From: Cyanidioschyzon merolae
Taxonomy: Eukaryota
Strand: one strand, 5' to 3'
DNA: 64,000 nucleotides
Assembly: GCA_000091205.1 (NCBI GenBank)
Contig: AP006488.2
The stretch's first letter is position 1; each line of letters starts with the position of its first letter. Below the pieces are notes generated by a model that saw nothing but the letters and a program-made list of their open reading frames with translations, did not search any database and had not been told where the DNA came from. The translations under genes and the position numbers were made by a program. Below are positions 9,197 to 58,744 of the stretch, piece after piece.

Positions 9197-9579
9197 TTTC
9201 TTGGATTAGATTTCCTCTGGTGCAAAGCTGCTGAACGCGCCACCAACTAGAGACGTTCGCTCAAGCATGCGTATCCAGTCAAAAACCTCTTTTGCGTAGC
9301 TGCAAGAGTGATCGCCCGTCAATGGTCCAGAGTCTGACCCATATCTCCCGTAGACTGCATAGCGTTGAGCACATCTAGCACAAGTGCTCAATGTCTTTCT
9401 GAGAAACTAGGCAAAACTCCTATGCTTCCCATCAACAACCTCATCAGCAGTTAGTGCCAAGGGTTCCGCAGTGCTGCGCTCAGATATCTAAACGACCGTT
9501 CACGAACGTCGACGTGGCTCTCCGACGAATACCGTAGAGGAGGTATAAGGGAATATCCTCCGGTGGTATGTTATTTTGG

Positions 9580-9685
9580 AAGCGTCTGCACGTCAGTTGG
9601 AGACGTCATGTTTAGGGCGGGTCACTCGCCACTACCGTGCACCGCGGGCAGCAGCGTTTTTCTTTTCAAAAGCATTTTTTGTCGG
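9580..9685 (+). mobile_element. Solo 3'-terminal fragment of the Fanzor/TnpB-like element family (conserved right-end module only)
   Basis: 'cgtctgcacgtcagttggagacgtcatgtttagggcgggtcactcgccactaccgtgcaccgcggg...gcgtttttcttttcaaaagc' matches the conserved 3' ends of the copies at 13140, 22060, 28270 and 32620. No upstream ORF is present. Confidence 0.5.
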
Positions 9686-10665: not shown

Positions 10666-13166
10666 ATGAAAAAGCAAGTCCACGATCCTGAAGCGCCATT
10701 GTCGCCGGCTGCCAGAAAAACAAATACAGTGCCGAGTCCCGACGAAGAGCAAAAGAAAAAGAAGCAAAGGGGGAGGCCCTATGTCGATCGCGGCAAGAAA
10801 GACGACTGTACGACGAGATAGTGTTGAACGCCTGACTTCTTAAACATATCAAGGATCCCTACAGGGAAAAGTTGCGAGACGCTATCGAAAACCGTGTCGA
10901 CTCGTACTCCAAGAGTCTTTTCAAGGCTTCGTCAGGACTGATGCATTTGGCGAGGGAGATGTATCGCGACGTGACGGACATGGCAACCATCGAGATTCCG
11001 GACGAGTTCTTCGACAAGACCTTTATTCGTCACCTGATGCATGGTACAGCGGGAACGTGGAGGGAAAACGTGCTAGTGCATGTTCTCCACGAAAACTTCG
11101 CGGAATTCCGCTTCGAGGGTGCTCGGTACAGCGGTGACTCGCATATTTACACATACGGGGCAATGAAGTTCATCACGAACCTGAAGAACCATTTGACAGA
11201 GAACCTCGAATGTTTCATGATACGCACCGCGTTTGCACTCTACCCGGGCATCTCTCGCAAGGGGATATGGTCGATTATCAATGGCATCACGAACGATCGC
11301 AAGCATGAAGGTGAGGTCGAATTCGTCGGCAAGAAGACGTCAAAAGGGAGCACGAATGAAGCTTCTGCAACCCGTGCGGCTATACAAGAGCACCGTGCAG
11401 TCTTGGGGCTGGTGAATCCAACAGACAAGATATCAAAGTTGGAGAAAGATAAGGAAAGATACTATCGCCTCTTCCTGCGGCATTTTGTGTTTCTGGACCG
11501 AGAGCTCGAACGCAAAGTGGAGATGAAGCTGAGTGAAGAGACAAATGAAGAGTGGGAAAGACGGAAGGCTTTCCTAATGGGGAAGCGCTTCGACGTGGTT
11601 CCGTTGTGCAACATCAAGGCACATTTTGTGACTATCGACTCCGCGGTCCTTTACGGCATCATAAAGGAGATCAGTGCGGAGTTCAATATTCGTAGGGAGC
11701 ACTTCACCGGCGAAAACCAGGAGACGTACTGGAAGAAGATCTTCGGTTTCAAACGTCTCAAAACGAGCAAGCAAAAGGTATTCGCTGGGATGATTGAAAC
11801 CGATGGAGTAAACGTGTGTGTACACTATCGGCGGCTGAAGCAAGATCGTCCAGTCCCACTCCCCGCTGCGCCCTCGATGAAGCATGAAGATGAGAATGAG
11901 TCGGATCCTGCCACGCAGGAGGTAGAGGATACTGATCTTGTCGTTGGCGTGACGAACGATGAAGATGAGCAGGAGGCTGGTCCTGCGACGCAGGAGGTGG
12001 AGGATAACGAGCTTGCCGTTGACGCAGCGGAGCATGAAGAAAACCAAGAGGCGGGTCCTGCGACGCAGGCGGCGGAGGATAACGACTTTATCGTTGACGT
12101 GACGAAGGATGATCATGGGAAGGAAGCGGATCCTGTGATGCAGGAGGTGCATGATGACGCCTTTATGGTTGGCGCGGCGAAGCATGAAGAAAACAAGAAG
12201 GTGGGCCCTGCGACCCAGAAAGTGCAGGATAAGGACTTTGTCGTTGGCGCGGACCCTCGGAATACGAATATCATTACCATCGCAGCACCGAAGCGTGCGG
12301 AAGATGGTACTGATGGTAACTTACGTCAGAAAGACATGCGTCTTTTGAGGTTCACGAGAGAGAGATACTATCGAGAATCGGGAATCATGAATGCGAGGAA
12401 ACAATTCGAGACTTGGAAGTCAGGAATGAAAGATCACCTGGAAGCTTCGAGCTAGGTGACGAGCCGAGGAGCGCACTTTGAAGCTTTTCGGAAAGTCATG
12501 GAAGGTCGCATGACGCACTGGGATACGCTGTGGAAGGAGTATACCAAGCCCCGGTGGGCTCGTTTCCGAATGAATTTGTATTGTGGGAAGCAGCGGGCGG
12601 TGGCGAATTTTTTCAATCAGTTGAATGCCTTGATGGACGATAACAGTCAGAGGCTCGTAGTAGCGTATGGGGCAGGGCGCTGGAACACTCAAAAAGGAAC
12701 TTCGCCAGCTCCAACGACGAGGGTGTACAAGGAGTGCGCACGTCGTTTCGTTACAATACGGGTAGACGAGTTCCGAACGTCCTATACTCACCATGAGCTG
12801 GGTTGTACACTTCAGAGGGTGAAGATGGAAAAGTACCAGAAGAGCCCTGAGGAAATAGCAAAGTACGGACCGCTGACGGAAGAGCAAATGGAAAGGAGGG
12901 CGAAAGTTCGTGGACTACTCGCATTAGTAAGTACAACCAGTGATGGCAAGAAACGGATGGATTTCGTGAACCGAGAGTTTAATGCCGCAATCAATATAAG
13001 GAGATTGGCGGTGCTAGAGAAAAGACCTCCAGAGTGGACAAGAGAGAACTTTATTGGACAATCACTCAAAGTCGATTTATATGAGAAAGAATTGGAATCA
13101 GTAGTAGGTGACCGGTCCAAAAAGGCGGCGAGGCGTCTCCACGTCAGTTGGGGACGTTTTGTCTAG
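10666..13166 (+). pseudogene. TnpB/Fanzor-like nuclease ORF of copy 1, disrupted: frameshift and TGA near the N-terminus and an in-frame TAG at 12453..12455
   Basis: Two adjacent ORFs (10872..12455 and 12456..13166) lie in the same frame and are separated only by a TAG. The sibling copy has GAG at that position. The N-terminal exon-like ATG at 10666 is out of frame with the main ORF, and a TGA lies in the continuing frame. The RuvC-III 'NAAINI' motif is intact. Confidence 0.6.
11898..12257 (+). repeat. In-frame tandem array (5 x about 69-72 bp) duplicating the acidic '[14 protein letters not shown]' segment that ends in the RuvC-I motif
   Basis: The protein repeats are '[25 protein letters not shown]', '[25 protein letters not shown]', '[25 protein letters not shown]', '[26 protein letters not shown]' and '[19 protein letters not shown]'. 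Copies 3 and 5 carry a single unit. Confidence 0.7.
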
Positions 13167-14246
13167 GGCGCGGTTTTCCCGCCACTACTGTACACCGTTG
13201 GCGTCGTTCGACTTTCGAGCGGCGTTTGGTGTGGCCGTGCGCGGGAAGACGTCCATCATTCCATCTCCTTCCGAGTCTCAAAGCCCATGCTTCTTCTCGG
13301 ATATACTGGTCGTTTCGTATACTCTATCGAGTGACCGTGCATGCCTTGCCGCATCCGCTCCAGTAGTTTAAACGCTTGTGCGGGGTGTACAAAGTAGGTA
13401 TGGCGCACGATACAACGTACGCAACGACCAGCATATCAGAGAGGAATCACGAGGAATGCAACGATAAGGCAGGATGCATCACGATAGACGCTTTCCCGAA
13501 AGACAATATCCATCTACCCCGCAATCTGGGATCCATGGTCCATGGAAACGTGCTGCTACTGGAAAGAAAAACGAACGGGTGTGCGCGGCTGCCGTCTGTT
13601 CAACGTAGTTTCGTATTTCGTTCTTTTCTAGGTGGTGTAACGGAACTGTCTGCGGAAAATGACAGAGGAGTCCGCGGTGGAAGCTCGGCGTGTATCCTGC
13701 GAGGATTCCGAGCCCGAGGGATCGCCTTCGGCAGCCGCGCGGTCAGAGCAGGATACCGAGACGCCCGTCAGCACGAACGCCACAGGCACGCGACTCAACT
13801 GGAACACGCAGGCACCTGCAGTGACGAACGACGGCTGGCAAACAGCAGCGAGCGTATGCTCTAGTTCCGGTTCTGCGCTTGGTGAAGCGTTCACTCCAGA
13901 CGCTGCGCCTTCGCACGTAGGTACTGGAGCCGCAGCTCGTAGTGTTATGGCGACTGCCTCGGTTGAGAACAGTGTTCACTCCTTATCTGAGTCACCAATA
14001 AGCTGGAAAACACGCTTGAATGACCTTTAGGAGCGTCTCCTTCCCTGGATTCCCGAGCGAATGGCTTCCTTTTTCTACCGTCAGGCAACGCGCTGGCTGC
14101 CGACTCTCGTGCAGCGACTTCGATCAGCCTACGCCAAATCGCTTGAACCCATGGACGCTGTCGTTCATCTCTACAGGGGCATTGTTCCGACTTTTGATCA
14201 TCTTCCCGCAGAGGGCCGGGCGCCAACACAGATTCTCGCCGACCTG

Positions 14247-14477: not shown

Positions 14478-14884
14478 TCCAGTTTTGATTCCATGTCAAC
14501 GTATTCGGTCTGTCGACCAAGAAAACTAGGCGACGCTGTCCAGTTACATACATATAAATTCATTAATATCCATATAAATTCCATATCTCTGTTTGCAATC
14601 AGGGACGTCGAGACTTTCCGCTGCCATGTTCGGGAGAAATGTCCGCTTTCAGCAGCCGAGATAACGAGATCGCTAGATGATTTTTGCAACGTGGCCCTGT
14701 TCCCAACCGCAGGTTTTTTGAAGTCGGATCACTACTGGAGCGCCGCAGCCGCCGGCGTTGCAGAACACTGACGCGCGCTTCGTTGAATGCTCGTTGACCA
14801 CGTCCACTGATACACGAACCTGAATACAAGCTTCGATACGATACATACTGAGCGGCTTACGAGTCATAACTTCATACCTCCAAA

Positions 14885-15560
14885 ACATGTCTACAACCCC
14901 TACTCGTGACGATAAGGATATTGTGGGAAAACGCTACGGTCTAGCTTGCCTGTCCTATCGTAAGCTACCACCTGTCGAAGGCGAGTACCCTGAAGGTGCT
15001 GCGCGGCTGGTGCTCTGTTGCATCAAGATCACCACCAAGGGAGACTCGCGTGCGTTTACCAAGTACCCATACACGGTGGATAATGGGTGGGTATGTTGTT
15101 GTGATTGGTGCGCTGCTTAAGAAATTTAGGCGGGGAGAGCACTTATACAACTATAGAAAAATCAAGTGCGTTCGGGGCTCTAGTGCGTTTCCACTTCAGA
15201 GCTTCTTTCTTCGAACACCGGCGCTACTGCTGCCGACGAGCCGGACGTTTTCCTCTGGAACGCGAAGCTTGAGCGGACTCCTCGAGGACTGCAGTGTCGT
15301 GGACTGGAAGTGATGATGTGCTCGTGTAGGAGTGGTATCCAACGCAGCGAAGTTCTTCGTTCAGCCGCGTCGCTCTAGCCTCATGCTATGCGGTGCGATT
15401 GTGACACTGCTTGACTGTGCCCTGCCCCAAGCGCTGAAGATTGCGTTCCCGCTCTGCACAGTTGGGGGCAGGACACCTGCACGAACTTGTTCCGCCCTCA
15501 CCGAAGGTCGTTTGCGTACTGGAAATGGAAAGTGAAGGATAGCTAGTGTCTGTATGCGGC
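14885..15560 (+). repeat. Inverted repeat pair, copy 1 (about 670 bp), carrying a conserved 77-aa Cys-rich small ORF (14887..15120)
   Basis: ORFs 14887..15120, 14996..15313 and 15332..15535 each have near-identical counterparts on the opposite strand at 22619..22852, 22426..22659 and 22204..22407. Confidence 0.7.
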
Positions 15561-16552
15561 AGACTACGTGTGACAGTTAAGCTGCATTCAGGAGGCCAGG
15601 GAGAGCCGCAAACATAAAAAAGACACAATGAGAAACAGACTGAAACGATTTGTCCTAAAACAACTGTCCTAAACCTTCCACACAGATCCCACATAAGAAT
15701 TCCGTTTTTCGGGATACACATTAAATGTGCCAAACAAAGCGGAAGGTTTCGGGTAACGTGAGAAGGAGCCCCACGACCGGGTCTTTGACAAATACGAACG
15801 TAGGGGTGGAACCAGTAGCACCATATGATGGTGAGATATTTGAGCAGACACCTGTCTGTCTTGAATCAACTCTGCAGGCACTGGCGCGAACCCTGGATCT
15901 AACCTCGAACTCGAGCTCAGGTTTACCTCCTACTTTAGTTTTTTCTTCAACTTTGGGGAAGTCTCGGCGGAGGTTTTGGAAGACGGCAGGCAGGTTGTTC
16001 GCGGTCGAAGGTGGAATAAGCGACTTACCCGCCTACATGTTTGGGGAGCGGATCCGAAGCCGTTGAAAGGGTCGTTAGTAGACTATATCCCGAGTGGTCG
16101 AGGGTTGCATCACGCGCCACGCAGCGTAACGGCCGCTTTCGAATCGACCCCGCCAGCTCGACTCCTAACACTGCGCTACCACTGCGGCAAGCACTCAATG
16201 AACGACTGGAGTGTAGAAGGCACTGGTGGCATGTGCGCTCACACACTCCGTGGCGGGTGCGTCTAAATCGACGGCACAACTCTGGAGCACCGCAACGCTA
16301 TTCCTAATCAATGACGAGCTACCACTCGATAGGTTTCGCATCGTGGAACATTTGCGGGACAGCCGCGAGACTGGACGATGCAAGGCACTTCCGGGAGCGC
16401 TGAGACGCCCATAGCCTGGCGTTGCGGGAGACACTACGCTCAGAGAACACAAATGCCTATAATAGTCTGCACATCCCAGGCTACAACAACGTTTGAACCT
16501 ACATACGCAGGCCCTACGGACAAGTTAACTTATTTATTTATGCACAGGTGGA

Positions 16553-20978: not shown

Positions 20979-21172
20979 CTCTCTAACAGAACTGGGAGCG
21001 TCTAGTCCACACGAGTGGAGAATTTAAACCTTTGAAGTAGTCTGCAGCGAACTACAGTACGACATTTGAAATAGATGAAGACTTGAGTGTGAGACGCCTG
21101 AAAGGCGAGCAGGGCAGAGCGCTCGCAGTCAAACAGAACGTTGAGATGCAAAGCGTGGTGCGCAGGTAAAGG

Positions 21173-22165
21173 TTGTCGTTGGCGCGGACCCGGAAACTCA
21201 AATATCGTTACCGTCGCAGTACCCAAGCGTGTGGCAGATGGTACTAACGGCACCTTACATCAGACAGACATGTGTCTTTTGAGGTTCTCGAGAGCAAGAT
21301 ACGATCGAGAATCCGGTATGATCAATGCAAGGAAGAAAATTGAGACATGGAATGCAGGAATGAAGGATCACCTGCAAGCTTTGAGCGAGGTGAGGAGCCG
21401 AGGAGCGGACTTTACAGATTTTCGGGAATTCATGGAAGTTCGCGTTGCTCATTGGGACGCGCTGTGGGAGGATTATACAAAGCCCAGGTGGGCTCGTTTG
21501 CGAATGAATCTGTACTGTGGGAAGCAGCGGGCGTTCGCCAACTTTTTCAATCAGGTGGGCGCCCTCAAGGAGATTGAAAGTCAGAGGCTCGTCGTAGCGT
21601 ACGGAGCAACGCGCTGGAAGACCCAAAAACGGGACTATGCCAGCTCCAACGACAAGAACGTACAAGGAGTGTGCACGGCGTTTCGCTGCGATACCTGCAG
21701 ATGAGTTTCGAACATCGTATACACACCACGAGCTGGGATTTACACTTCAGAGAGTCGAGATGGAAACGTGCCAACGAAGCCATGAGGAAATAGCAAACTA
21801 CGGACCGCTGATGGGAGAGCAAATGGATAAGAGAGCGAAAGTTCGTGGACTACTTGCGCTGGTGAGCGCAACCAAAGATGACAAGAAACGTATGGTATTA
21901 GTGAACCGAGACTTTAACGCCGCTACGAATGTAAAGAGATGTACGGTGACAGATAGAAGACCTCCAGAGTCGACAAGAGAGAACTTTGTTAGACAATCAC
22001 TCAAAGTGGAACTATATGAGAAACAGTTGGAAGCAGTTGTAGGTGACCGGTCCAAAAGGCTGGGAGGCGTCTGCACGTCAGCTGGGGATTTCTTGTCTAG
22101 GGCGGGCTTCTCGCCACTACTGTACACCGCTGGCGACAACGTTTTGCTTTTGAAAGGCGTTTTGT
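21173..22165 (+). mobile_element. Fanzor/TnpB-like element copy 2 (family A; 5'-truncated, begins at the RuvC-I 'VVGADP' segment; frameshifted)
   Basis: Homology begins at 'gttgtcgttggcgcggaccc'. ORFs 21141..21704 and 21637..22353 lie in different frames, with the same +1 insertion as copies 3 and 4. The 'VNRDFNAATNVKR' RuvC-III-like motif and the conserved 3' end are present. Confidence 0.7.
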
Positions 22166-22194
22166 TTCAGGGGTTTTTGCAGTATACAGACACT

Positions 22195-22860
22195 ATCTAT
22201 CCTTTACTTTCCATTTCCAGTACGCAAACGACCTTCGGTGAGGGCGAAACAAGTTCGTGCAGGTGTCCTGCCCCCAACTGTGCAGAGCGGGAACGCAATC
22301 TTCAGCGCTTGGCGCGGGGCACAGTCAAGCAGTGTCACAATCGCACCGCATAGCATGAGGCTAGAGCGACGCCGCTGAACGAAGAACTTCGCTGCGTTGG
22401 ATACCACTCCTATACGAGCACATCATCACTTCCAGTCCACGACACTGCAGTCCTCGAGGAGTCCGCTCAAGCTTCGCGTTCCAGAGGAAACCGTCCGGCT
22501 CGTCGGCAGCAGTAGCGCCGGTGTTCGAAGAAAGAAGCTCTGAAGTGGAAACGCACTAGAGCCCCGAACGCACTTGATTTTTCTATAGTTGTATAAGTGC
22601 TCTCCCCGCCCAAATTTCTTAAGCAGCGCAGCACTCACAACAACATATGCAGCCATCATCTAACGTGTACGGATACTTGATAAAGGCGCGTGGGTCACCT
22701 TTGGTCGTGATCTTGACACAACAGAGCGCCACTCGCCCAGCACCCTCAGGAAACTCACCCTCAACGGGTGGGAGTTCACGATAAGATAGGCAAGTTAGAC
22801 CAGTACGTTTTCCCACAATATCCTTATCGGTTGGCGTTTGCTTTTCGGGCATCTTTTAAA
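22195..22860 (-). repeat. Inverted repeat pair, copy 2 (reverse complement of 14885..15560), abutting the 3' end of element copy 2
   Basis: See 14885..15560. The 77-aa ORF 22619..22852 (-) reads 'MPEKQTPTDKDIVGKRTGLTCLSYRELPPVEGEFPEGAGRVALCCVKITTKGDPRAFIKYPYTLDDGCICCCECCAA', against 'MSTTPTRDDKDIVGKRYGLACLSYRKLPPVEGEYPEGAARLVLCCIKITTKGDSRAFTKYPYTVDNGWVCCCDWCAA' in copy 1. Confidence 0.7.
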
Positions 22861-25800
22861 AGTAGCAGATAATGATTCTGAGGCAAAGGTCGTGAAGTAG
22901 CGAGCGAAGCTTGTATTCAGGTTCTTGTATCAGTGAACCTCAACAACGAGTATTCAACGGGGCGCGCGTCAGCACTCAGCACCGTCGGCGACTGCCGCGT
23001 TCCACTGATGATGCGTCTTCAAAACACCGGCGAGAGCGTGTAGGCTGCCACGTTGCACACGCCGTAGCGCGCCTCTCGCCATGTCGTCATCTCGCCTGTT
23101 GCTGTAGGCGGACCCTGCGTCCCTAGCACGAAAGCGGAACGTCCCACCGTGATAGCCCACAAAGATCTAGTACTTTTTGGTATATTAATATATTAAATTG
23201 TACGTTATGAGTTCGCGCCTGTGGCGATCCCCGCAGCCTGTTCGCGAGGACTCTCAGTTGTAGGTACCCATGGCATCCTATCCTTATGTCAGATTAAAGT
23301 GGAGAACTCAGCTGCTCGCGCAGTTCCTGCCTTGAGATTTTTCCGCAATGGTTTTAGATCTCCAGTCTGTAGAAGCAAAGTGCAACAGTGCGGGCTCATG
23401 GAATGGGAAGCAGCTGCAGGAATCACGGACGCGCAACCGGAGTGGCTTTGTAGACCCTCTGCCGCTGGCATTCGTCACGTCACCGTCATTTGAATGATGC
23501 GCGGCACCCGCGAGCAAGGATTCATCACATAAAAGGCATCTTCTTCCACGACATGCGTACAAGCCTCTGCGCTTCTCATATTCCTTAGTGTGGCGTGCAC
23601 GAATCACTCGCATGCGCCAAGGTTCGATGCCTCTGTTTCAAGGCGACACTCGGGTGCAGCACTTCATGTCGTTGGATGGACGACGAAAAAAACCTGGGTT
23701 GAGGCCGTGACGACTCGTTCACAGACTCTCGCTGAAACGTCACGCAGCTTATCACTGCAAACAAGCAGTTTCGCTCGGGAAGCAATGCCACCTCTATGTG
23801 GGGCTATCGACGGAGCGGCACTCATTGGCAGTATGGTGCAGTTCCCGGAACATGCGCTCAGAGGCGCCCGTCTCTTTTCTGCGCATGGAAAGGGGTCCTC
23901 GACCCGGGCTTTACTCATCGCTGCGATGACTTTGAGTAGAGCGTGCGTCACTGCTTTGCGCGAAGTGAGCGAAGACAGATCGAGAGTTCACGACGTGCAC
24001 GCCGGACTGGGAGGTTCGTTGCGATACCTGTTCCTGTCTGGAGAGCATCGCCTTCGACGAGTCGTCTAGAGAAGGGAGCAGCATGCGCAGGCGTGTGTTG
24101 AGGGGAGCGCTCTCGCCGAGGCGATCGCCCAGCAGAAGCCCGTGAGCGTAGGTTACGGCAGCTGGTGCGAGAACGGAGCAGGGCACTGAGGTGAGGCTTC
24201 TGGACCCGCCACACACAGTTACGGAGCGTCGACGCGAGCGTTCACGTGTCAGCGACTAGCCGTCAGATGACGAAGTATGCTGGTGGCACGTGACCGCCAG
24301 ACCACAGCCAAGCGGCAACGCTGCGACGGGCGCACCGCAACAGAGTGGAAAGAAGGTGCACATGGCAAGCGAAGCGAAGATGGCAACTTTTGGCAGTGCA
24401 TGGAATGCCTAGACAAGAGTCGGCAGCTATGGAATCGGGGCCTGAACACCACCACCGCCAATATCGTGCGACTGCTATGAACAGCGCTGGAGAGAAAGGA
24501 GAGACCAGCGTCGTTTAAAGAAGCCGAAATATTAGTGCATACGTCTTTGTCCGTGGATCTGTTCAGTTCTATGTAACTCGAACGCACCTGTCAGTGGAAC
24601 AAAAACGTCCCACGACCATGTCGTATACATGAATATCTACCCGCAGACGCCTCCCTGCCATGCTGGACCGCGCCCTGCTGTCGGCTCCAGCTTCTTGTTG
24701 TATACGGAGACCCTGAGAGACTGCCCCGCAAGTCAGATCGCGTCAGTTCCTCGGGTAAAGTCTTTCGCTCTGCACATTATCTGATAATGATGGCGACGTT
24801 GAGGTCTCGGTCAACGAACTCGTTGCATTTATTGCCGATGGTGGAACCTCGCTTTGCGAAGACGCATCGAACTCGTGCTCTCTGTGCCACCAGAGTTTCG
24901 TAAACGTACCGTCGAGCAAACACCTTTTCCTGGCTATCTCTCATCGTCATCGTCTTCGTTGTCCTCATCTGTTGCTCCTCTTCGATTGGTGGTCAGCGGG
25001 AAGAGGATTTTTTCATTTTGTTTGTCGAACTCGGCAATGATGGTCCTCCGGTATCCTCGACTTTCACGTCCATACCATTGCATTCTATTTTTTTGAGAAC
25101 GAACGCACTTGGAACGCATCTGCTGTTAACCGCGAAAAACCACTTGAATACTATACGAGGCTATTGGAACACGAATGCATTGAAAGACTAGACCTTGCTG
25201 CCACTTCAACCCTAACACGTCTTGTCCGTTAGAGCGACACGTTCATGATCAGGATCGCGTTTCCCTTCAACGGCGAGATGTGCGTCGTGTCTTGTTCTTT
25301 TTCTGGTCTGAGAAAACCTATCCATCGACCGTGGATCACGGATTGCGGGATGGATATCGGCTTTCGGGAAAGCGCCCGTCATGGTGCACCCTGCCTCCAG
25401 GTTCCATTACTTAGACTCCCTTTCCGCTAGACTGGTCGATTTGTGCGTTCGTTCGTGCGCCGAGCCTGCAGTGAGCACCCGCCGCAGCGCTTGTACCGCT
25501 GGAGCGGATGCTGCACAGGGACAGAACAGCGTAGGCGTACCACCGAATGCGCTGCGACCAGGGCGACGCCCAGACGCTGCCTGAGCACCCTTAATGCCGG
25601 AATAAACCGCTTCGGGGATGAGTTGGTCAGATATCACTAAAGCACCTGCCATTGGGTGGGGGAAGCATGACGCAATTACCCAGAAGACTCGTCCGGCTCA
25701 CGGGGCCTTCCGCCTGGAGCGCAAACATTCTAACATGCGGAAAGCTTCTCCCCCTGTCAACGTTTAGCGTAGAGGGGGAATGAAATCGTTACATCGTTTG

Positions 25801-25929
25801 TCGTGAATCGTGAGTCTCTGTTCTTTGTTCTAAATAACGCTGTCGAGTTGTGCACCTCCATATTTGAAAGGCATGAAATACAATGCGCTTTTCACAGTGG
25901 AAGAGAAACGTAGTCCTGACCATTCGTTG

Positions 25930-28350
25930 ACGTGTTGTTCTACCGGAAAAAGTTGTATTCGCGTTGGAGTCGAAGCAAAGTACAATTTTTCAGTTCATTT
26001 GTGTTTCAGCCCTCAAACATGTCTAGTCGAGTGTTTTCTTGCAATATATAATAGAAGGATTCGAAGCTGGTTCTTTTTCAAAAAAAATAAAAAAAGGAAA
26101 GTCATAGGAAAGCAAGTCGGCGATCCTGGAGGCCCAGGATCGCCGGCTGCCAGAAAAACAAATACAGTGCCGAGTCCGGACGAACAGCAAAAGAAAAAGA
26201 AGCAAAATGTGAGGCCCTACGTCGAAGGCTGCAAGAACGACAACTGTACAACGAGATAGTGGTGAAAACCTCTCTTCTTGGACATATCAAGGATCCCTAT
26301 AGGGAAAAGTTGCGAGGCGCTATCGAAAACCGTGTCGACTCGTAACCCAAGAGTTTTGTCAAGGCGTCTTCCGGACTGATGCATTTGGCGAGGGAGATGT
26401 ACAAATACGTGACGCACATGGAAACGGTCGACATTCCGGACGAGTTCTTCGACAAGACGTCTTTTCGATACCTGATGCATGGTACAGCGGAAACGTGGAG
26501 GGAAAATGTGCTAGTGCATGCTCTTTACGAAAAATTCGTGGAATTCCGATTCGAGGGTGCTTGGTACAGGGGTGACTCGCATATTTACACATACGGGGCA
26601 ATGAAGTTCATCACGAACCTGAAGAACCATTTGACAGAGAACCTCGAATGTTTCATGATACGCACCGCGTTTGCACTCAACCCGGGCATCTCTCGCAAGG
26701 GGATATGGTCGATTATCAATGGCATCACGAAAGATCGCCAGCATGAAGATGACGTCGAATTTGTCGACAAGAAGACGTCAAAAGGGAGCACGAATGAGGC
26801 TTCTGTAACCCGTGCGGCTATACAAGAGCACCGTGCAGTCTTGAGGCTGGTGAATCCAACAGACAAGATATCAAAGTTGGAAAAAGATAAGGAAAGATAC
26901 TATCGCCTCTTCCTGCGGTATTTTGTGTTTCTGGACCGAGAGCTCGAACGCAAAGCGGAGATGAAGCTGAGTGAGGAAAAATGAAGAATGGGAAAGACGG
27001 AAGGCTTTCCTAATGGGGAAGCGCTTGGACGTGGTTCCGTTGTGCAACATCAAGTCACATTTTGTGACTATCGACTCCAGATCCCTCACGACATCACGAA
27101 GGAGATCAGTGCGGAGTTCAATATTAGTCGCGAGGACTTCACCGGCGAAAACCAGGAGACGTACTGGAAGAAAATCTTCGGTTTCAAACGTCTCAAAACG
27201 AGCAAGCAAAAGGTATTCGCTGGGATGATTGAAACCAATGGAGTAGCCGTGTGTGTACACTATCGGCGGTTGAAGAAAGATCGTCGAGTCCCACCCCCCG
27301 CTGCGCCCTCGACGAAGCATGAAGATGAGAATGAGTCGGATCCCGCCACGCAGGAGGTGGAGGATACTGATCTTGTCGTTGGCGCGGACCCCGGACACAT
27401 CATTATCATCAACATCGCAGCACGGAAGCGTGTGGCAGATGGTACTAACGGCACCTTACATCAGACAGACATATGTCTTTTGAGGTTCTCGAGAGCAAGA
27501 TACGATCGAGAATCCGGTATGATCAATGCAAGGAAGAAAATTGAGACATGGAATGCAGGAATGAAGGATCACCTGCAAGCTTTGAGCGAGGTGAGGAGCC
27601 GAAGAGCGGACTTTACAGCTTTTCGGAATTTCATGGAAGTTCGCGTTGCTCATTGGGACGCGCTGTGGGAGGATTATACAAAGCCCAGGTGGGCTCGTTT
27701 GCGAATGAATCTATACTGTGGGAAGCAGCGGGCGTTCGCCAACTTTTTCAATCAGGTGGGCGCCCTCAAGGAGATTGAAAGTCAGAGGCTCGTCATAGCG
27801 TACGGAGCAACGCGCTGGAAGACCCAAAAACGGGACTATGCCAGCTCCAACGACAAGAACGTACAAGGAGTGTGCACGGCGTTTCGCTGCGATACCTGCA
27901 GATGAGTTTCGAACATCGTATACACACCACGAGCTGGGATTTACACTTCAGAGAGTCGAGATGGAAACGTGCCAACGAAGCCATGAGGAAATAGCAAACT
28001 ACGGACCGCTGATGGGAGAGCAAATGGATAAGAGAGCGAAAGTTCGTGGACTACTTGCGCTGGTGAGCGCAACCAGTGATGGCAAGAAACGTATGGTATT
28101 AGTGAACCGAGACTTTAACGCCGCTACCAATGTAAAGAGATGGACGGTGACAGAAAGAAGACCTCCAGAGTCGACAAGAGAGAACTTTGTTAGACAATCA
28201 CTCAAAGTGGAACTATATGAGAAACAGTTGGAAGCAGTTGTAGGTGACCGGTCCGAAAAGGCTGGGAGGCGTCTGCACGTCAGGTGGAGACGTCGTGTCT
28301 AGGGCGTGTTTGCCACTACTGTACACCGCTGGCCGCAGCATTTTTCTTTT
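25930..28350 (+). mobile_element. Fanzor/TnpB-like element copy 3 (full-length mosaic: family-B-like 5' half plus family-A 3' half; multiple frameshifts)
   Basis: The 5' end is 'cgtgttgttctaccggaaaaagttg', followed by a TATA 'tatataatag' and then the MHLAREMY... N-terminal half, about 90% identical to copy 1. The RuvC half is near-identical to copies 2 and 4 ('[32 protein letters not shown]...'). ORFs 26379..26984, 26988..27905 and 27838..28302 lie in three frames. Confidence 0.7.
26045..26054 (+). promoter_or_regulatory. TATA-box-like sequence (TATATAATAG) upstream of the element-internal ATG
   Basis: Read directly in the sequence. The equivalent position in copy 1 reads 'cataatag', about 50 bp before 'atgaaaaag'. 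Confidence 0.3.
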
Positions 28351-29242
28351 GAATGGCGTTTATTTTTTAGGCGACGACCACAAGCCTGTTCCCTAGTCAT
28401 CGGTCGTACGCGCGACTCCTCGGAAGTTTGGCTATAATCAGCGCGCCCCTCTAGCAAAACAGTCGAGTCGGCACCAGATGCGCCCGAGAGGCCCCGCGCC
28501 GACCTTCAACCTATTCTCGCTAACCAAAAGTTGAATACCTGCTCTGCAGCTGTTCGATCAGCTACCTCGACAGAGTAGAGGTCGATAAGCGCTCTTTCAC
28601 GATGAACTACCAGGTCATGCGCAAGTCACGCACCCTACGCTTTCGTGCTATCCGCAAAACCTGCTATCTTCCAAGCGTAGCGGCTTGCGGACCATCAAGG
28701 CAACTATGCGCTGAAATTCCGCCTCTTGTACCGTTGAACAACTTCCCTGAATGCTTCGCGCCATCGAGAAGCATATTCATGTATCGTGCGCCTGCAAGAA
28801 GCGGTTCCAACACTTCATACCGACTCAGTGGGTCCTCGACCGCAATCAAGTTCAGATTTCCGGACACAGCGTCCGCCTACGCATGAAAAACGGCCTCCAA
28901 GTCTGTTGTCGCGTGCTGTTTTTGAGGCAATGAGGAACCGCGGATGCATTGCTCGTCCACTGAGCAGTCGCGTGCGCCAGTATCGAGGACGCGTGCCGTT
29001 CTCGCAGCAAAAGAACCAGTCTGTCGGAGCGTCTCCTACTATTCCACGATACTCCAGCGGAAAAAGAGCGACTCTTCGCCCCTGTCGACGAATTGGCGCC
29101 CCGGGCGACGCTTTACGCACTTCGAGCGCTCCATGAGAGCAACCGTGAATCCCAACTGTCCCAGTTTACGATCATCGCTGGCACGGTTCAAACCGCAGTG
29201 CCCCGCCAGTTAGCAAGTTATGTCGTGAGATATTCGGAGGAA

Positions 29243-31642
29243 CTAGCGCCCCGTGCTGTGCTGCTCCAGCAGTGCTCTGCGTGCATTCTCGAGGAGTATC
29301 TTCTGCTCAACGCTTGCGATCTGTTTCCGCGTACTGATCACAGCATCAGGGTTGACACTCACGCTGTCAATGCCACAGCGAACTAAAAACTCGGTTAAAT
29401 CCGGATATACTGAAGGAGCCTGCCCGCAGATACTCACAGTGATATTGGCACGGTGGGCTTCCTCGATGAGGATGCGCATCGCGGCCTTGACTGCCGGATC
29501 GCGCTCATCAAAGTATCCCAAAGTGGCAAGCTTCGGGGAATCTCGATCCGCGCCCAGCAACAGCTGCGTTAGGTCGTTGCTACCGATACTAAATCCATCA
29601 CAGAGCTGAGCAAAATCGCGCGCGAGCAGAACAACGCTGGGAACCTCCGCCATGAGCAGAACTTTGAAGTCGGAAGCGCGCTGCAGTCCTTCAGAGCGCA
29701 TCAAGTCAAGCGCACGCTGCACCTCCCAGGTCGTTCGTGCAAATGGTAACATGGCCCAGACATTTTTCAAACCCTGCTCATCCCGAACCTGCTTCATCGC
29801 TCGGCATTCGAGGCGAAACCCGGCCTCGTACTCAGCGCTGACATAGCGCGAGACGCCCCGCCAGCCGAGCATCGGATTAGATTCAAGGATCTCGTACCGT
29901 TCGCCGCCTTTCAGGGAGCGGTATTCGTTGGTCTTGAAATCACTAAATCGGACAATGACTGGCCTCGGATAGGCAGCTTGTGCGACCATGGAAATACCTT
30001 CCGCGAGCTTCTCCACGAGCATTTCTTCCTCCTTGTTCTCGATAATGTACATGGGATGGTGTCCAACCCAGCTGGCAAGGATGAACTCGACCCGCATGAG
30101 CCCAATGCCGTCAAATGGCAGGTGACGTAGATCCTGCATTTTCTCTGGTTCACCGAGGTTCATGTAGACGCGAGTAGCCGTGATCGGCAATACCATCGAC
30201 GCGACTGCGTCAGCGGATATCCCTGCCTTGGGCGGTGTGTCCTCCTCGGCTTTGTGTACTCCGCGCAGTATGACACCCAGCGTTCCGTCCACCGTCACGA
30301 TCTGGCCGCTTCGAAGAATCTCGGTTGCTTTGCCGGTGCCAACCACACATGGTAAGCCAAGTTCACGCGAGACAATCGCGGCATGCGCAGTCATTCCGCC
30401 ACTGTCGGTGACGATGGCCGCCGCCTTTCTCATCGCTGGCACCCAGTCCGGCGTTGTCATTGATGTGACAAGCACTTCACCTGGTTGGAACTCCGATATG
30501 TTCTGGACATCAAGAAGGACTCGCACTTTCCCGTGTGCGCGCCCTGGCGATGCTCCGAGGCCACGTACCAAAACCTCGCGACGCGAGGCTGCTTTCCTGT
30601 CTGACCAGACTGTTTCGGGACGCGCTTGAAGCACATAGAGCTGGTTCTTTTCCTCATCTATGGCCCATTCAATGTCCATTGGTATTCCGTAATGCTTTTC
30701 TATGGTGAGTGCAGTTCGTAGGAGCTCCTGTATCTGTGCATCGGTGAGACACGGAGCCTCCACCAGGTCCGCTGGTACGGGTACCTCACGGGTCAGCGTG
30801 TCAGCGGATGCTGCGTCGATGCCCTGGACGCCGTCAGCGACTGCGGCTCGCACCATCATCAGCGGCTTTGAGGCAGTGTGGCGCTCGAGCACACGCCCGC
30901 TTGCCTTTTCGACCACGAAACGATCCGGTCGAACCCTGCCCTGAACGACCATCTCGCCGAGTCCCCAGCAGCACTCAATAACGATCAGATCACGCTTGCC
31001 GGTAACCGGATCCAGGGTGAAACAAACCCCCGAGACACGGCTCTGAACCATTTGCATCACACCCACACTCAGGCGCATATCCAGGTGCGGGTAGCCTTTC
31101 TCCTCCCGATATGCAATGGCGCGAGGCGAGAACAACGAGCCGTAGCATTTCTTGATATACTGGAGGATCGCATCGATGCCGTGCACGCACAGATACGTCT
31201 CTTGCTGGCCAGCAAAACTTGCCTCTGCAGAGTCCTCCGCAGTTGCGCTGCTGCGAACTGCAACCAGTGGCTCTTGCGCCCCAAGGGTTTTCACCAAGTT
31301 GCGGTACGCACTTCGAATCATCTGCTCTACGGGCGGTGGGTATGCAGCATCCTCCAACAACGCCATTATTGCCTTTGAGGCTTCCTCCAGCGAGCTGGGC
31401 GACTCTAAGTTCAGACCTTGAAGAATGGACTGAATTTTCGTGTCCAGCTTATTGAATTCGATAAAGGACTCGTACGCGGCGACCGTCACAGCGAAGCCTC
31501 GCGGGACCAAGAGCCCGAGACTCAGCAGCTCACCCAGGCTGGCGTTCTTCCCCCCAACTAAGCCTCTGTCTGTATTCCTCAAATTCTGTAGCTCCACAAC
31601 GTACTTCCCAGCGTCGTTTTCCTCGCAGTTTGTGAGCACCAT
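29243..31642 (-). CDS. ppsA: Phosphoenolpyruvate synthase (pyruvate, water dikinase), bacterial PpsA-type
   Basis: The ORF is intact over about 799 aa from M at 31642. The 852-aa track ORF starts further upstream, inside element copy 4. Blocks align to PpsA: 'DRGLVGGKNASLGELL', 'VAVRSSATAEDSAEASFAGQQETYL', 'GLGEMVVQGRVRPDRFVVEK' and 'KHYGIPMDIEWAIDEEKNQLYVLQARPETVWS'. The phospho-His motif is 'GGMTAHAAIVSRELGLPCVVG'. The C-terminal PEP-utilising domain includes 'IGSNDLTQ'. Confidence 0.85.
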   Translation of the reverse strand: MVLTNCEENDAGKYVVELQNLRNTDRGLVGGKNASLGELLSLGLLVPRGFAVTVAAYESFIEFNKLDTKIQSILQGLNLESPSSLEEASKAIMALLEDAAYPPPVEQMIRSAYRNLVKTLGAQEPLVAVRSSATAEDSAEASFAGQQETYLCVHGIDAILQYIKKCYGSLFSPRAIAYREEKGYPHLDMRLSVGVMQMVQSRVSGVCFTLDPVTGKRDLIVIECCWGLGEMVVQGRVRPDRFVVEKASGRVLERHTASKPLMMVRAAVADGVQGIDAASADTLTREVPVPADLVEAPCLTDAQIQELLRTALTIEKHYGIPMDIEWAIDEEKNQLYVLQARPETVWSDRKAASRREVLVRGLGASPGRAHGKVRVLLDVQNISEFQPGEVLVTSMTTPDWVPAMRKAAAIVTDSGGMTAHAAIVSRELGLPCVVGTGKATEILRSGQIVTVDGTLGVILRGVHKAEEDTPPKAGISADAVASMVLPITATRVYMNLGEPEKMQDLRHLPFDGIGLMRVEFILASWVGHHPMYIIENKEEEMLVEKLAEGISMVAQAAYPRPVIVRFSDFKTNEYRSLKGGERYEILESNPMLGWRGVSRYVSAEYEAGFRLECRAMKQVRDEQGLKNVWAMLPFARTTWEVQRALDLMRSEGLQRASDFKVLLMAEVPSVVLLARDFAQLCDGFSIGSNDLTQLLLGADRDSPKLATLGYFDERDPAVKAAMRILIEEAHRANITVSICGQAPSVYPDLTEFLVRCGIDSVSVNPDAVISTRKQIASVEQKILLENARRALLEQHSTGR

Positions 31643-31726
31643 TAGGTTGGCCGAATTCCAGGTCGTTTGACAGACTCCAGAAACAGAAAGAATTGAGATT
31701 GTAATCTCCGGACGTGAACGTGCTGC

Positions 31727-32707
31727 TGGCGGCCGACCCCAGAAACACAATTTCATAACCATCGCAGCACGGAAGCGTGTGGCAGATGGTACTAACGGCA
31801 CCTTACATCAGACAGACATGTGTCTTTTGAGGTTCTCGAGAGCAAGATACGATCGAGAATCCGGTATGATCAATGCAAGGAAGAAAATTGAGACATGGAA
31901 TGCAGGAATGAAGGATCACCTGCAAGCTTTGAGCGAGGTGAGGAGCCGAGGAGCGGACTTTACAGCTTTTCGGGAATTCATGGAAGTTCGCGTTGCTCAT
32001 TGGGACGCGCTGTGGGAGGATTATACAAAGCCCAGGTGGGCTCGTTTGCGAATGAATCTGTACTGTGGGAAGCAGCGGGCGTTCGCCAACTTTTTCAATC
32101 AGGTGGGCGCCCTCAAGGAGATTGAAAGTCAGAGGCTCGTCGTAGCGTACGGAGCAACGCGCTGGAAGACCCAAAAACGGGACTATGCCAGCTCCAACGA
32201 CAAGAACGTACAAGGAGTGTGCACGGCGTTTCGCTGCGATACCTGCAGATGAGTTTCGAACATCGTATACACACCACGAGCTGGGATTTACACTTCAGAG
32301 AGTCGAGATGGAAACGTGCCAACGAAGCCATGAGGAAATAGCAAACTACGGACCGCTGATGGGAGAGCAAATGGATAAGAGAGCGAAAGTTCGTGGACTA
32401 CTTGCGCTGGTGAGCGCAACCAGTGATGGCAAGAAACGTATGGTATTAGGGAACCGAGACTTTAACGCCGCTACCAATGTAAAGAGATGTACGGTGACAG
32501 AAAGAAGACCTCCAGAGTCGACAAGAGAGAACTTTGTTAGACAATCACTCAAAGTGGAACTATATGAGAAACAGTTGGAAGCAGTTGTAGGTGACCGGTC
32601 CGAAAAGGCTGGGAGGCGTCTGCACGTCAGGTGGAGACGTCGTGTCTAGGGCGTGTTTGCCACTACTGTACACCGCTGGCCGCAGCATTTTTCTTTTGAG
32701 TGGCGCT
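31727..32707 (+). mobile_element. Fanzor/TnpB-like element copy 4 (family A; 5'-truncated at the same point as copy 2; same frameshift)
   Basis: Homology starts at 'gctggcggccgacccc...catcgcagcacggaagcgtgtggcagatgg'. ORFs 31779..32252 and 32185..32649 are more than 98% identical to the copy 2 and copy 3 peptides. The conserved 3' end is '...gtctagggcgtgtttgccactactgtacaccgctggccgcagcatttttcttttgag'. Confidence 0.7.
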
Positions 32708-58742: not shown

Positions 58743-58744
58743 CA

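What the first reader, a model, noticed from the sequence alone, without database searches (positions are those of the whole stretch)
21173..32707. Mosaic element structure: a roughly 1-kb 3' (RuvC-half plus right end) module propagates alone, truncated at the same point, and carries a shared frameshift
Copies 2 and 4 both begin exactly at the 'VVGADP' RuvC-I segment, but with unrelated 5' flanks ('...gcgcaggtaaag|gttgtcgttggcgcggaccc' against '...gaacgtgctgctgg|cggccgacccc'). Copies 2, 3 and 4 all share the same 1-bp insertion ('aaaaacgggactatgccagc' against copy 1 'aaaaaggaacttcgccagc'), which splits the ORF into 'CTAFRCDTCR*' and 'MPAPTTRTYKECARRF...'. In copy 3 the 5' half is about 90% identical to copy 1, while its 3' half is only about 70% identical to copy 1 and about 98% identical to copies 2 and 4. 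The 3' module therefore appears to be a separately evolving unit that multiplied after it was already coding-defective. It may be a non-autonomous derivative or a preferred recombination or truncation point, possibly at the tandem-repeat region.
Basis: seen in the sequence. Interest (0 to 1): 0.55.

Follow-up and report, generated by a model that had tools for sequence, protein, structure and literature searches.

The report
Recombining dead Fanzor transposon copies
A cluster of broken copies of a known red-algal Fanzor (RNA-guided nuclease) transposon looks mosaic because neighbouring copies keep exchanging sequence by recombination and gene conversion; nothing shows that their 3' half is a new mobile element.

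Summary
Copies 2 and 4 are 3'-only, about 1 kb long, and start within about 15 nt of the RuvC-I 'VVGADP' codons with unrelated flanks. Copies 2, 3 and 4 share a 1-nt insertion. Copy 3 switches from 91% to 81% identity to copy 1 (not about 70%) right after a 75-bp tandem-repeat unit.

The elements are Fanzor1 genes: the fold matches SpuFz, PpFz and GtFz at E about 1e-16. They belong to the CMe-1A type that Bao & Jurka (2013) described in Cyanidioschyzon merolae. All copies in the window are pseudogenes, copy 1 included.

Ectopic recombination and gene conversion among linked copies explain the mosaic and the shared frameshift better than independent propagation of a 3' module.
- Differences among copies 2, 3 and 4 are extremely patchy.
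- A natural haplotype (L083) carries a single hybrid copy-2/copy-3 module and differs from the window by two nested inversions.
- In another strain (L084) the orthologous module is only about 91% identical while its flank is 99.6% identical.
- This module type was found nowhere outside this cluster.

Structural breakpoints do cluster within about 130 bp of the tandem repeat, so the 'preferred truncation point' idea is supported. How the truncated copies first arose is unresolved. This is an ordinary process in a known family, and interest is modest.

The parts
9578..9683 (+). Solo 100-bp copy of the element's 3' non-coding tail (equivalent to c3 28265-28364), about 720 bp upstream of copy 1.
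   Evidence: (D12). The same arrangement is seen in L031 (orthologue, 99.8%) and L044 (82%).
10405..13230 (+). Copy 1: full-length core Fanzor1 element and a pseudogene. It has stops at 10833-10835 and 12453-12455, RuvC-III D replaced by E, and five 75-bp tandem units at 11876-12250.
   Evidence: The orthologue L031 is 98% identical.
13347..13551 (-). Inverted copy of the 'A-block', the 5' leader repeat also found at 25313-25546 and 53523-53743. It is possibly related to TE-N2_CMe.
   Evidence: The comparison with TE-N2_CMe rests on PMC3627910 and is an inference.
14546..15561 (.). Left arm of a 1-kb inverted repeat (IR). It recombines with IR' (22178-23205) in natural haplotypes.
   Evidence: (I1).
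21160..22171 (+). Copy 2: 3'-only module (RuvC half plus tail). It has a 1-nt deletion at its start and the shared 1-nt insertion at 21630. About 22 private differences are confined to its last 300 bp. It lies 190 bp upstream of the divergently oriented DHHC gene.
22178..23205 (.). IR', the right arm of the inverted repeat. It directly abuts the 3' end of copy 2.
25313..27372 (+). Copy 3, 5' part. It comprises the leader (A-block 25313-25546, leader to about 25840), the core 5' half (91% identical to copy 1, with patches of 97-100%) and a single 75-bp unit at 27311-27385. Stops are at 26343 and 26982.
27373..28371 (+). Copy 3, 3' module. It is 81% identical to copy 1 and 98.2% identical to copy 4. 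The shared 1-nt insertion is at 27831.
   Evidence: The orthologues L086-L089 are 98.7-99.3% identical.
31722..32705 (+). Copy 4: 3'-only module, about 80 bp upstream of the divergently oriented PpsA start codon. The shared insertion is at 32178. Its first roughly 50 bp are strongly diverged.
   Evidence: The junction is also present in L086.
53523..56700 (+). Copy 5: old, degenerate full-length copy, about 70% identical to the others. It has several frameshifts, including an independent extra A at the same A-run, and an internal 89-bp duplication at 54919-55096.
43184..43887 (-). Distant Fanzor RuvC-half remnant, 29-40% amino-acid identity to P0001.

Best explanation
The window comes from a Cyanidioschyzon-like red alga. 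It holds a cluster of dead copies of a CMe-1A-type Fanzor1 element. The element is a roughly 2.8-3.1-kb unit that encodes only a TnpB-like RuvC nuclease. It has a 75-bp variable-number tandem repeat (VNTR) between the N-terminal half and the RuvC half, a conserved 3' non-coding tail, and a hairpin near each end.

The mosaic pattern is produced by homologous (ectopic) recombination and gene conversion between linked paralogous copies, not by separate transposition of the 3' half.

(1) Shown: copies 2 and 4 are old 5'-truncated copies. Their edges (first roughly 50 bp, and for copy 2 the last 300 bp) remain diverged.

(2) Shown: the interiors of copies 2, 3 and 4 have been homogenised to at most 1% divergence. 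The frameshift sits in this tract. Inferred: it was carried along by conversion, or was inherited before later conversions.

(3) Shown: crossovers inside the module and inside a second inverted repeat have produced alternative chromosome arrangements in natural populations. An orthologous module in another strain has been overwritten.

(4) Inferred: the 5' half of copy 3 was separately converted with copy 1, and that tract ended at the VNTR. A conversion tract cannot extend past the point where the truncated partners (c2, c4) lose homology. This would explain why the identity switch in copy 3 coincides with their truncation point.

(5) Shown as clustering, mechanism inferred: the VNTR/RuvC-I zone is prone to breakage, slippage and illegitimate joining. 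That would account for the truncations themselves.
For: Identity of the element.
- An AF2 model of homologue P0053 matches the Fanzor1 structures SpuFz, PpFz and GtFz at E = 8e-17 to 3e-15. A profile hits GtFz1.
- The RuvC motifs GADP, DEFRTS and NRDFNAA are visible in the translations.
- The best named hit for the host gene PpsA is Cyanidium caldarium.
- CMe-1A in C. merolae has about 150 copies, about 80% identity to its consensus, a length of about 3 kb, and no TIRs or TSDs (PMC3627910).

Patchiness among c2, c3 and c4.
- In the central 650 bp, c2 and c4 differ at 1 site and c3 has 6 singletons.
- In the last 295 bp, c3 is nearly identical to c4, while c2 has about 22 private differences (Fisher p = 7e-11).
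- The first roughly 50 bp are diverged in all three.

Population evidence.
- L083 is from the same species (98% identity). Between PpsA and DHHC it has one module whose 5' part and flank are copy-2-like and whose 3' part and flank are copy-3-like. The crossover lies between 27795 and 28076.
- L083 also carries a hybrid IR/IR'. Together these equal two nested inversions relative to the window.
- L086-L089 confirm that the window arrangement also exists in nature.
- In L084 the module is 86-96% identical to c3, while the adjacent unique flank is 99.6% identical. Its tail is copy-2-like to within about 10 nt of the end of homology.

Family-wide evidence.
- Eleven near-identical tracts (98% or more over at least 300 bp) sit inside otherwise diverged pairs among 36 dereplicated elements.
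- 5' and 3' halves are discordant in several pairs.
- The c2-4 module type has no relative closer than 15% among the 97 3' halves compared (window plus 85 fetched loci). Protein fragments of it occur only at the c3 locus and in L083.
- dN/dS of 0.23-0.36 between 3' halves shows they diverged as coding genes before the recent frameshift.
Against: - The origin of the truncated copies is not explained by conversion alone. Two neighbouring 3'-only copies starting within about 15 nt of each other still need a hot spot or a common origin.
- The census is biased against frameshifted copies. The 80 loci were ranked by single-segment tblastn score, and L083 itself was not returned. Metagenome contigs break inside these repeats. 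Further copies of the c2-4 type elsewhere in the genome therefore cannot be excluded.
- An unbiased breakpoint scan did not single out the VNTR. It was dominated by rate heterogeneity and poor alignment in the 5' region.
- Endpoints of conversion tracts are scattered, with only a modest excess near the VNTR.
- The direction and order of the events (which arrangement is ancestral) are not determined.
Confidence: 0.7

Rival explanations
1. The roughly 1-kb 3' module (RuvC half, tail and right end) is a non-autonomous mobile unit. It is mobilised in trans from an internal start near VVGADP, and it multiplied after acquiring the frameshift.
For: - Two 3'-only copies with unrelated flanks start within about 15 nt of each other.
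- 3'-only copies starting in the same 130-bp zone exist in related genomes: L016, L042, L047, L066, L070, L081, L049 and L051.
- The module retains the conserved tail and the subterminal hairpin expected of a right end.
Against: - This module type was found only in this one cluster.
- Identity is patchy, not uniform, and the very 5' ends are the most diverged part.
- No TSD was found, and the junction has no similarity to the element's left end.
- The start points of 3'-only copies differ: 27300, 27309, 27349, about 27360, about 27375, 27427 and 27430.
- Some 3'-only copies are internal deletions that keep the 5' leader (L049/L051) or part of the N-terminal half (L073, L076, L077).
Confidence: 0.1
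2. Local, non-transpositional duplication. A single, already frameshifted module was copied two or three times within this 11-kb region, for example by unequal or template-switch repair. The edges were later overwritten by conversion from other family members.
For: - All three copies are in the same orientation within 11.5 kb.
- The central 650 bp are at most 1% diverged and carry one shared derived insertion.
- The region is demonstrably rearrangement-prone.
Against: - No flanking sequence is co-duplicated.
- It needs extra conversion events at both edges of each copy to produce the diverged first 50 bp and copy 2's tail.
- The copy-2-type tail is closer to the family consensus (it has the complete hairpin). 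That fits retention of an older state better than import.
Confidence: 0.15
3. Abortive, one-sided copying during repair of double-strand breaks made by an active Fanzor/omega-RNA (homing). Synthesis would start at the right end and stall or switch template at the tandem repeat, which would give 5'-truncated copies.
For: - TnpB-family nucleases promote transposon retention by DSB-stimulated homologous recombination. This is stated in the abstracts of 10.1101/2023.11.20.567912 and PMC10705468.
- All truncated copies keep the 3' tail.
- Breakpoints cluster at the repeat.
Against: - No guide/target relationship was examined or found.
- No omega-RNA is demonstrated. Rfam gave no match and the covariation signal is weak.
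- Every copy in the window is dead.
- The head-to-head pairs have arms that are 26% diverged, so they are not fresh fold-back products.
Confidence: 0.05

Closest known systems
CMe-1A Fanzor1 element of Cyanidioschyzon merolae (Bao & Jurka 2013, PMC3627910)
   Same: - The host is a cyanidiophycean red alga.
- The unit is about 3 kb and encodes only a Fanzor1 protein.
- There are many copies about 80% identical to each other (mean pairwise divergence 16-17%).
- No TIRs or TSDs were detectable.
- The 5' leader also occurs on its own. Here this is the A-block/leader at 25313 to about 25840, with solo copies at 13347-13551 and elsewhere. In the paper, the 5' 635 bp equal TE-N2_CMe.
   Different: The Repbase consensus was not available, so direct sequence identity to CMe-1A was not tested. 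The window is probably not C. merolae 10D itself, because no NCBI protein matched PpsA closely. The paper does not describe the in-frame 75-bp VNTR, the shuffling of 5' and 3' halves, the truncated 3' copies or the inversion polymorphism.
Fanzor1 RNA-guided nucleases with solved structures (SpuFz1 8GKH/9CEU, PpFz 9CF0, GtFz1 9CER)
   Same: The whole-protein fold matches (Foldseek E = 8e-17 to 1e-14, TM 0.45-0.64). RuvC-I D, RuvC-II E and RuvC-III D are in the expected order.
   Different: - Sequence identity is only 12-16%.
- Pfam recognises only DUF8286.
- A canonical C4 zinc ribbon is not evident in the sequence.
- No omega-RNA is demonstrated.
- The copies in the window are all inactivated.
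Concerted evolution and ectopic recombination among dispersed repeats (gene conversion between transposon copies; inversions between inverted repeats)
   Same: - Conversion tracts are bounded by the limits of homology.
- Interiors are homogenised and edges are diverged.
- Reciprocal crossover products are seen as alternative haplotypes.
- A disabling mutation has spread among paralogues.
   Different: Nothing in principle differs. The local twist is that the partners are halves of an RNA-guided nuclease gene, separated by an in-frame VNTR.
Non-autonomous Helitron2 Fanzor1 elements (CRe-1/2/3) and TnpB-only IS200/IS605 derivatives
   Same: - They encode a Fanzor/TnpB protein only, with no transposase.
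- Hairpin-forming sequences lie near both ends. Near the core's left end the sequence is GCGCTC-GGT-GAGCGC. Near the right end it is CGTCGTTCGA-CTT-TCGAACGGCG.
- There are no TIRs.
   Different: No Rep/helicase or TnpA partner was identified. Neither 5'-TC/CTRR-3' termini nor variable TSDs were seen. The classification stays unknown, as in the 2013 paper.
LINE-like 5'-truncated 'dead on arrival' copies
   Same: The copies keep the 3' end and lack the 5' end.
   Different: There is no reverse transcriptase, no poly(A) tail and no TSD. Truncation points are clustered rather than random.

Membership tests
Fanzor1 (eukaryotic TnpB-like RuvC nuclease) | Split RuvC catalytic triad in the order D ... 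E ... D, with the flanking motifs (DPG; DE[FY]xTS; RDxNAAxNI). | tested here: met
   VVGADPG, DEFRTSYTHHE and NRDFNAAINI are present in the homologues and in copies 2-4. Copy 1 has NREFNAA (D replaced by E).
Fanzor1 (eukaryotic TnpB-like RuvC nuclease) | Overall fold like solved Fanzor1 structures. | tested here: met
   AF2 model of P0053: pLDDT 74, pTM 0.63. The Foldseek top hits are SpuFz, PpFz and GtFz at E = 8e-17 to 1e-14, followed by Cas12f at 1e-4.
Fanzor1 (eukaryotic TnpB-like RuvC nuclease) | C4 zinc ribbon between RuvC-II and RuvC-III (motif of Bao & Jurka). | tested here: inconclusive
   There is no OrfB_Zn_ribbon Pfam hit. Only H-H-C-C residues are visible in THHELGC...C, and the c2-4 type has F in place of the first C.
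Fanzor1 (eukaryotic TnpB-like RuvC nuclease) | Cognate omega-RNA encoded at the transposon end. | tested here: inconclusive
   The roughly 130-nt tail is strongly conserved across 49 distinct loci. Rfam gave no match. RNAalifold found only a 6-bp hairpin with 2 covarying pairs. No expression data are available.
CMe-1A family (Repbase; C. merolae) | About 3 kb, Fanzor1-only, about 80% identity among many copies, no TIR/TSD, a 5' leader shared with a separate short TE, and a cyanidiophycean host. | tested here: met
   - c3 spans 3,059 bp.
- Mean pairwise divergence is 0.16-0.17.
- 272 related stretches were found in a few hot-spring-type metagenomes.
- The leader occurs on its own.
- The paper is cited.
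CMe-1A family (Repbase; C. merolae) | Nucleotide similarity to the CMe-1A consensus sequence. | not testable with these tools
   The Repbase consensus is not held in any accessible collection.
   The three copies all lie within 11.5 kb. The module type is absent from the other fetched loci and from protein fragments elsewhere. Identity is patchy and the 5' ends are diverged. Caveat: the census is biased and incomplete.
   No direct repeats flank c2 or c4. The best left-end against body alignment scores no better than shuffles and does not fall at the junction.
LINE-like 5' truncation | Reverse-transcription origin: poly(A) or 3' repeat tail, TSD, and random truncation points. | tested here: not met
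   The tails end in a hairpin followed by GGCGTTT, with no A-run. Breakpoints cluster within 130 bp.
Helitron2 / HUH-type element | Hairpins at both ends, plus a Rep/Hel or Y1 partner and characteristic termini. | tested here: inconclusive
   Hairpin-forming sequences lie near both ends of the core. No partner gene or TC/CTRR termini were seen. A trans-acting partner was not searched for.

The most novel reading that the evidence does not exclude
The 3' module (RuvC half, conserved tail and right-end hairpin) is created repeatedly by a directed process. Either it is mobilised from an internal start, or it results from one-sided, Fanzor/omega-RNA-triggered break repair that copies inward from the right end and aborts at the in-frame tandem repeat. 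On this reading the tandem repeat acts as a built-in module boundary, along which N-terminal (guide/target-binding) and RuvC halves of Fanzor genes are reshuffled.
Probability: 0.1. Interest if true: 0.65.

Novelty: new member of a known kind. Interest (0 to 1): 0.3.

Why it matters
If the main reading is right, this is a clean natural example of concerted evolution among dead copies of a eukaryotic RNA-guided nuclease gene.
- A disabling frameshift and whole half-genes move between paralogues by conversion.
- The repeats drive inversion polymorphism around two host genes, DHHC and an archaeal-type PEP synthase.

It is useful as a caution. Copy identity and shared defects in Fanzor/TnpB families cannot be read as transposition history. 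It also shows that N-terminal and RuvC halves of Fanzor1 genes can be recombined in nature. It does not open a long-standing question.

Tried and rejected
- Pfam and PDB sequence searches of the window proteins found nothing. Identification needed a profile and a fold search.
- Exact look-ups of window ORFs in the assembly index failed.
- Internal pseudo-left-end hypothesis. The local alignment of the core's left end against the body scored 20, against a shuffle mean of 19.2, and did not fall at the junction. Rejected.
- Programmed frameshifting at the insertion site was considered because c5 also has one extra nt there. It was rejected. About 90 other family members lack the extra base, the context is not a known slippery site (my reading), and every copy has further stops.
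- Rfam gave no match to the 3' module. RNAalifold and per-sequence folding gave only weak, mostly invariant helices. An omega-RNA is therefore not claimed.
- The max-chi-square breakpoint scan over all pairs was dominated by one element with a non-homologous 5' end (L063) and by rate heterogeneity in the 5' 700 bp. It is not usable as a hot-spot test.
- The switch-point analysis of discordant pairs is circular, because the pairs were chosen by half-against-half discordance. It is reported only as illustration.
- A more distant species (L085, 74% identical in PpsA) has no Fanzor sequence at the c4 site or the PpsA-DHHC site. Its intergenic DNA is too diverged to define empty-site boundaries.
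- The segmental-duplication-with-flanks reading was rejected from self-BLAST.
Full report
WHAT IS THERE

The window is intron-poor eukaryotic DNA of about 53% GC. Its host genes include:
- a DHHC palmitoyltransferase at 19518-20978(-);
- a PEP synthase at 29243 to about 31642(-);
- a protochlorophyllide-reductase-like SDR at 8282-9196(-).

The closest named relative of the PEP synthase is Cyanidium caldarium (66%), followed by archaeal enzymes. Metagenome contigs 98-99% identical to the window exist. The host is therefore a cyanidiophycean red alga.

Self-BLAST shows five + strand copies of one element:
- c1: 10405-13230.
- c2: about 21160-22171.
- c3: 25313-28371.
- c4: about 31722-32705.
- c5: 53523-56700.
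There is also a solo 100-bp tail at 9578-9683 and a distant remnant at 43184-43887(-).

WHAT THE ELEMENT IS

The conceptual protein has 64 relatives. Nearly all come from JGI metagenomes, and Pfam annotates them only as DUF8286. A profile of the family weakly hits Guillardia theta Fanzor1 (E = 0.028). An AlphaFold model of homologue P0053 (pLDDT 74) matches the solved Fanzor1 structures SpuFz, PpFz and GtFz at E = 8e-17 to 1e-14, well ahead of Cas12f. The RuvC motifs GADPG, DEFRTS and NRDFNAA are present.

Bao & Jurka (2013, PMC3627910) described such an element in Cyanidioschyzon merolae as CMe-1A. It has about 150 copies, each about 80% identical to the consensus. It is about 3 kb long with no TIRs or TSDs, and its 5' 635 bp also exist as a separate element, TE-N2_CMe. 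The copies here fit that description:
- c3 spans 3,059 bp.
- Family members differ by 16-17% on average.
- A 5' leader (A-block) occurs on its own.
- Hairpin-forming sequences lie near the core's left end (GCGCTC-GGT-GAGCGC) and right end (CGTCGTTCGA-CTT-TCGAACGGCG).
- An in-frame 75-bp tandem repeat (VNTR) separates the N-terminal half from the RuvC half. It has 1 to 7 units in different copies.

CHECKING THE OBSERVATION

All three points hold, with corrections.

First, c2 and c4 are 3'-only. c2 becomes homologous at TTGTCGTTGGCGCGGA, possibly 12 nt earlier. c4 becomes homologous at about CTGGCGGCCGACCCC. Both points lie in the codons for VVGADP and within about 15 nt of each other. The flanks are unrelated on both sides.

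Second, the 1-nt insertion (c2 21630, c3 27831, c4 32178) is shared and splits the ORF. Among 97 aligned 3' halves it occurs only in these copies and their orthologues. c5 has an independent extra A at the same A-run.

Third, c3 is 91.3% identical to c1 up to the end of its single repeat unit and 81.1% identical after it. c3-c4 is 98.2% and c2-c3 is 95.4%.

Copy 1 is not intact. It has stops at 10833 and 12453 and a RuvC-III D-to-E change. c3 has two more stops and a local frameshift. Every copy in the window is a pseudogene.

WHY I DO NOT READ THIS AS A SEPARATELY PROPAGATING MODULE

(a) The differences among c2, c3 and c4 are not spread evenly.
- The first roughly 50 bp are strongly diverged in all three.
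- In the central 650 bp, c2 and c4 differ at one site and c3 has six singletons.
- In the last 295 bp, c3 and c4 are almost identical while c2 has about 22 private differences (p = 7e-11).
Fresh copies of one defective master would be uniformly similar, including at their 5' ends. Conversion tracts between old copies leave exactly this pattern of homogenised interiors and diverged edges.

(b) Natural haplotypes show the exchange directly. Contig L083 (98% identical to the window) has PpsA and DHHC only 2.1 kb apart with a single module between them. The 5' flank and 5' part of that module are copy-2-like, and its 3' part and 3' flank are copy-3-like. The crossover lies between 27795 and 28076. 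The same contig has a hybrid of the 1-kb inverted repeats IR (14546-15561) and IR' (22178-23205), and continues into 23206-23713. Relative to the window this equals two nested inversions, one through IR x IR' and one through module x module. Contigs L086-L089 show that the window arrangement also exists in nature.

(c) In contig L084 the module next to PpsA is only 86-96% identical to c3. The unique DNA immediately beside it is 99.6% identical. The tail of that module is copy-2-like to within about 10 nt of the end of homology. The orthologous module has therefore been overwritten since these strains diverged.

(d) The c2-4 sequence type has no relative closer than 15% among the other loci. 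Protein fragments of that type occur only at the c3 locus and in L083.

(e) c2 and c4 have no target-site duplication, and the junction does not resemble the element's left end.

The halves do have separate histories, and not only here.
- The 3' half of c1 is 98% identical to that of L041, while their 5' halves differ by 17%.
- The two tandem copies in L026 are identical over their 5' kilobase and 21% different in the 3' half.
- L013/L012, L061/L028 and L041/L003 behave similarly.
- A search for near-identical tracts inside otherwise diverged pairs found eleven among 36 dereplicated elements. Their endpoints are scattered along the element, with only a modest excess near the VNTR.
- A max-chi-square scan was not informative.

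Structural breakpoints cluster much more tightly. The ends of 3'-only or internally deleted copies fall at these c3-equivalent positions:
- 27300 and 27309: the head-to-head pairs of L016, L042, L047, L066, L070 and L081. Their junction is a small palindrome at the start of a repeat unit, and their arms are 26% diverged.
- 27315: deletion derivatives L073, L076 and L077.
- about 27360: c2.
- about 27375: c4.
- 27427: L070 and L081.
- 27430: L049 and L051, which keep the 5' leader.
- 28265: the one outlier, the solo tail.
So 'a preferred recombination or truncation point at the tandem-repeat region' is supported for structural events. The number of independent events is small, perhaps five to seven.

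MECHANISM, WITH WHAT IS SHOWN AND WHAT IS INFERRED

Shown:
- crossover and non-reciprocal conversion between these copies;
- homogenised interiors and diverged edges;
- the frameshift lying in the homogenised tract;
- divergence of the 3' halves under coding constraint (dN/dS 0.23-0.36), so the c2-4 type descends from a once-functional lineage.

Inferred:
- c2 and c4 are old truncated copies.
- The frameshift spread, or was maintained, by conversion.
- The 5' half of c3 was converted with c1 over a tract that ended at the VNTR. Within that half, identity itself varies from 80-90% to 97-100%.
- The identity switch in c3 coincides with the truncation point of c2 and c4 because conversion cannot run past the end of homology with truncated partners.

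Unresolved: how the truncations arose. Slippage or breakage at the repeat, illegitimate joining, and truncated insertion all remain possible.

CAVEATS

- The metagenome census kept the 80 best single-segment tblastn matches. This disfavours frameshifted copies, and L083 was not among them.
- Contigs tend to end inside these repeats.
- I could not see the rest of this genome.
- Additional copies of the c2-4 type elsewhere therefore cannot be excluded. I give the independent-propagation reading about 10%.
- No omega-RNA was demonstrated. The tail is strongly conserved, but Rfam gave no match and covariation is weak.

VERDICT

This is a real and correctly observed pattern in a known Fanzor1 transposon family. 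It is best explained by ordinary ectopic recombination and gene conversion among clustered dead copies, with a breakage-prone tandem repeat as the module boundary. It is modestly interesting as a documented case, with natural inversion haplotypes, of half-gene shuffling in a eukaryotic RNA-guided nuclease family. It is not a new kind of element.

Noticed in passing
window 14546-15561 and 22178-23205; L083 10191-11726: A 1-kb inverted repeat pair (83-89% identical) recombines in nature. Contig L083 carries a hybrid arm that joins 15562 to 23206. Together with a module x module crossover, this gives a two-inversion polymorphism around the DHHC gene.
   Followed up: yes
window 29243-31801 (-): The PEP synthase is archaeal-like. 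After the two closest metagenome hits (99% and 81%) and Cyanidium caldarium (66%), the next hits are Thermoprotei and Marsarchaeota at about 63%, which suggests old horizontal transfer into Cyanidiophyceae. The ORF's first roughly 53 codons are antisense copy 4, so gene callers produce an N-terminally extended 849-aa protein (P0065).
   Followed up: partly
window 56170-56180 (copy 5): Copy 5 has an independent 1-nt insertion (an extra A) at exactly the A-run where copies 2-4 have their extra C. About 90 other family members have neither.
   Followed up: partly
window 9578-9683; L031 923-1025; L044 1234-1339: A solo 100-bp copy of the element's tail sits about 720-750 bp upstream of a full-length core at three loci. 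It starts at the same internal position in each (c3-equivalent about 28265). It may be the remnant of an upstream tandem copy.
   Followed up: partly
window 13347-13551 (-), 25313-25546 (+), 53523-53743 (+); 25090-25291 (-): The leader 'A-block' and a 'B-block' (the core's first 200 bp) occur as separate pieces, sometimes inverted. At least four alternative upstream leader modules precede the core in different loci. The A-block is possibly the TE-N2_CMe of Bao & Jurka.
   Followed up: partly
L016 2435-4489; L042, L047, L066, L070, L081: Two diverged 3' modules (74% identical) are joined head to head. Both begin at the first base of a repeat unit, around a small palindrome (GGCTTCGCC-CCTG-GCGAAGG). 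On one side L016 is syntenic with window 60258-62675, but the window has no such pair there.
   Followed up: partly
window 11876-12250 and family-wide: The 75-bp (25-aa, acidic) in-frame repeat between the N-terminal half and RuvC-I varies from 1 to 7 units among copies. Many metagenome contigs end inside it.
   Followed up: partly
window 43184-43887 (-); L010/L022 3-659; L040/L050/L057 about 11540-12295: RuvC-half remnants of a second, distant Fanzor family are present, with 27-40% amino-acid identity.
   Followed up: no
window 14240-14477 and 18716-18954; 35585-35804; 58740-58870: There are other repeats: a 239-bp dispersed duplicate (96% identical), a 56-bp tandem array and a 66-bp tandem pair. 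None is related to the Fanzor copies.
   Followed up: no
L026 927-3117 and 4490-6959: Two full-length elements lie in tandem on one contig. Their 5' kilobase is 100% identical and their 3' halves differ by 21%. This is the mirror image of the copy 1/copy 3 pattern.
   Followed up: partly
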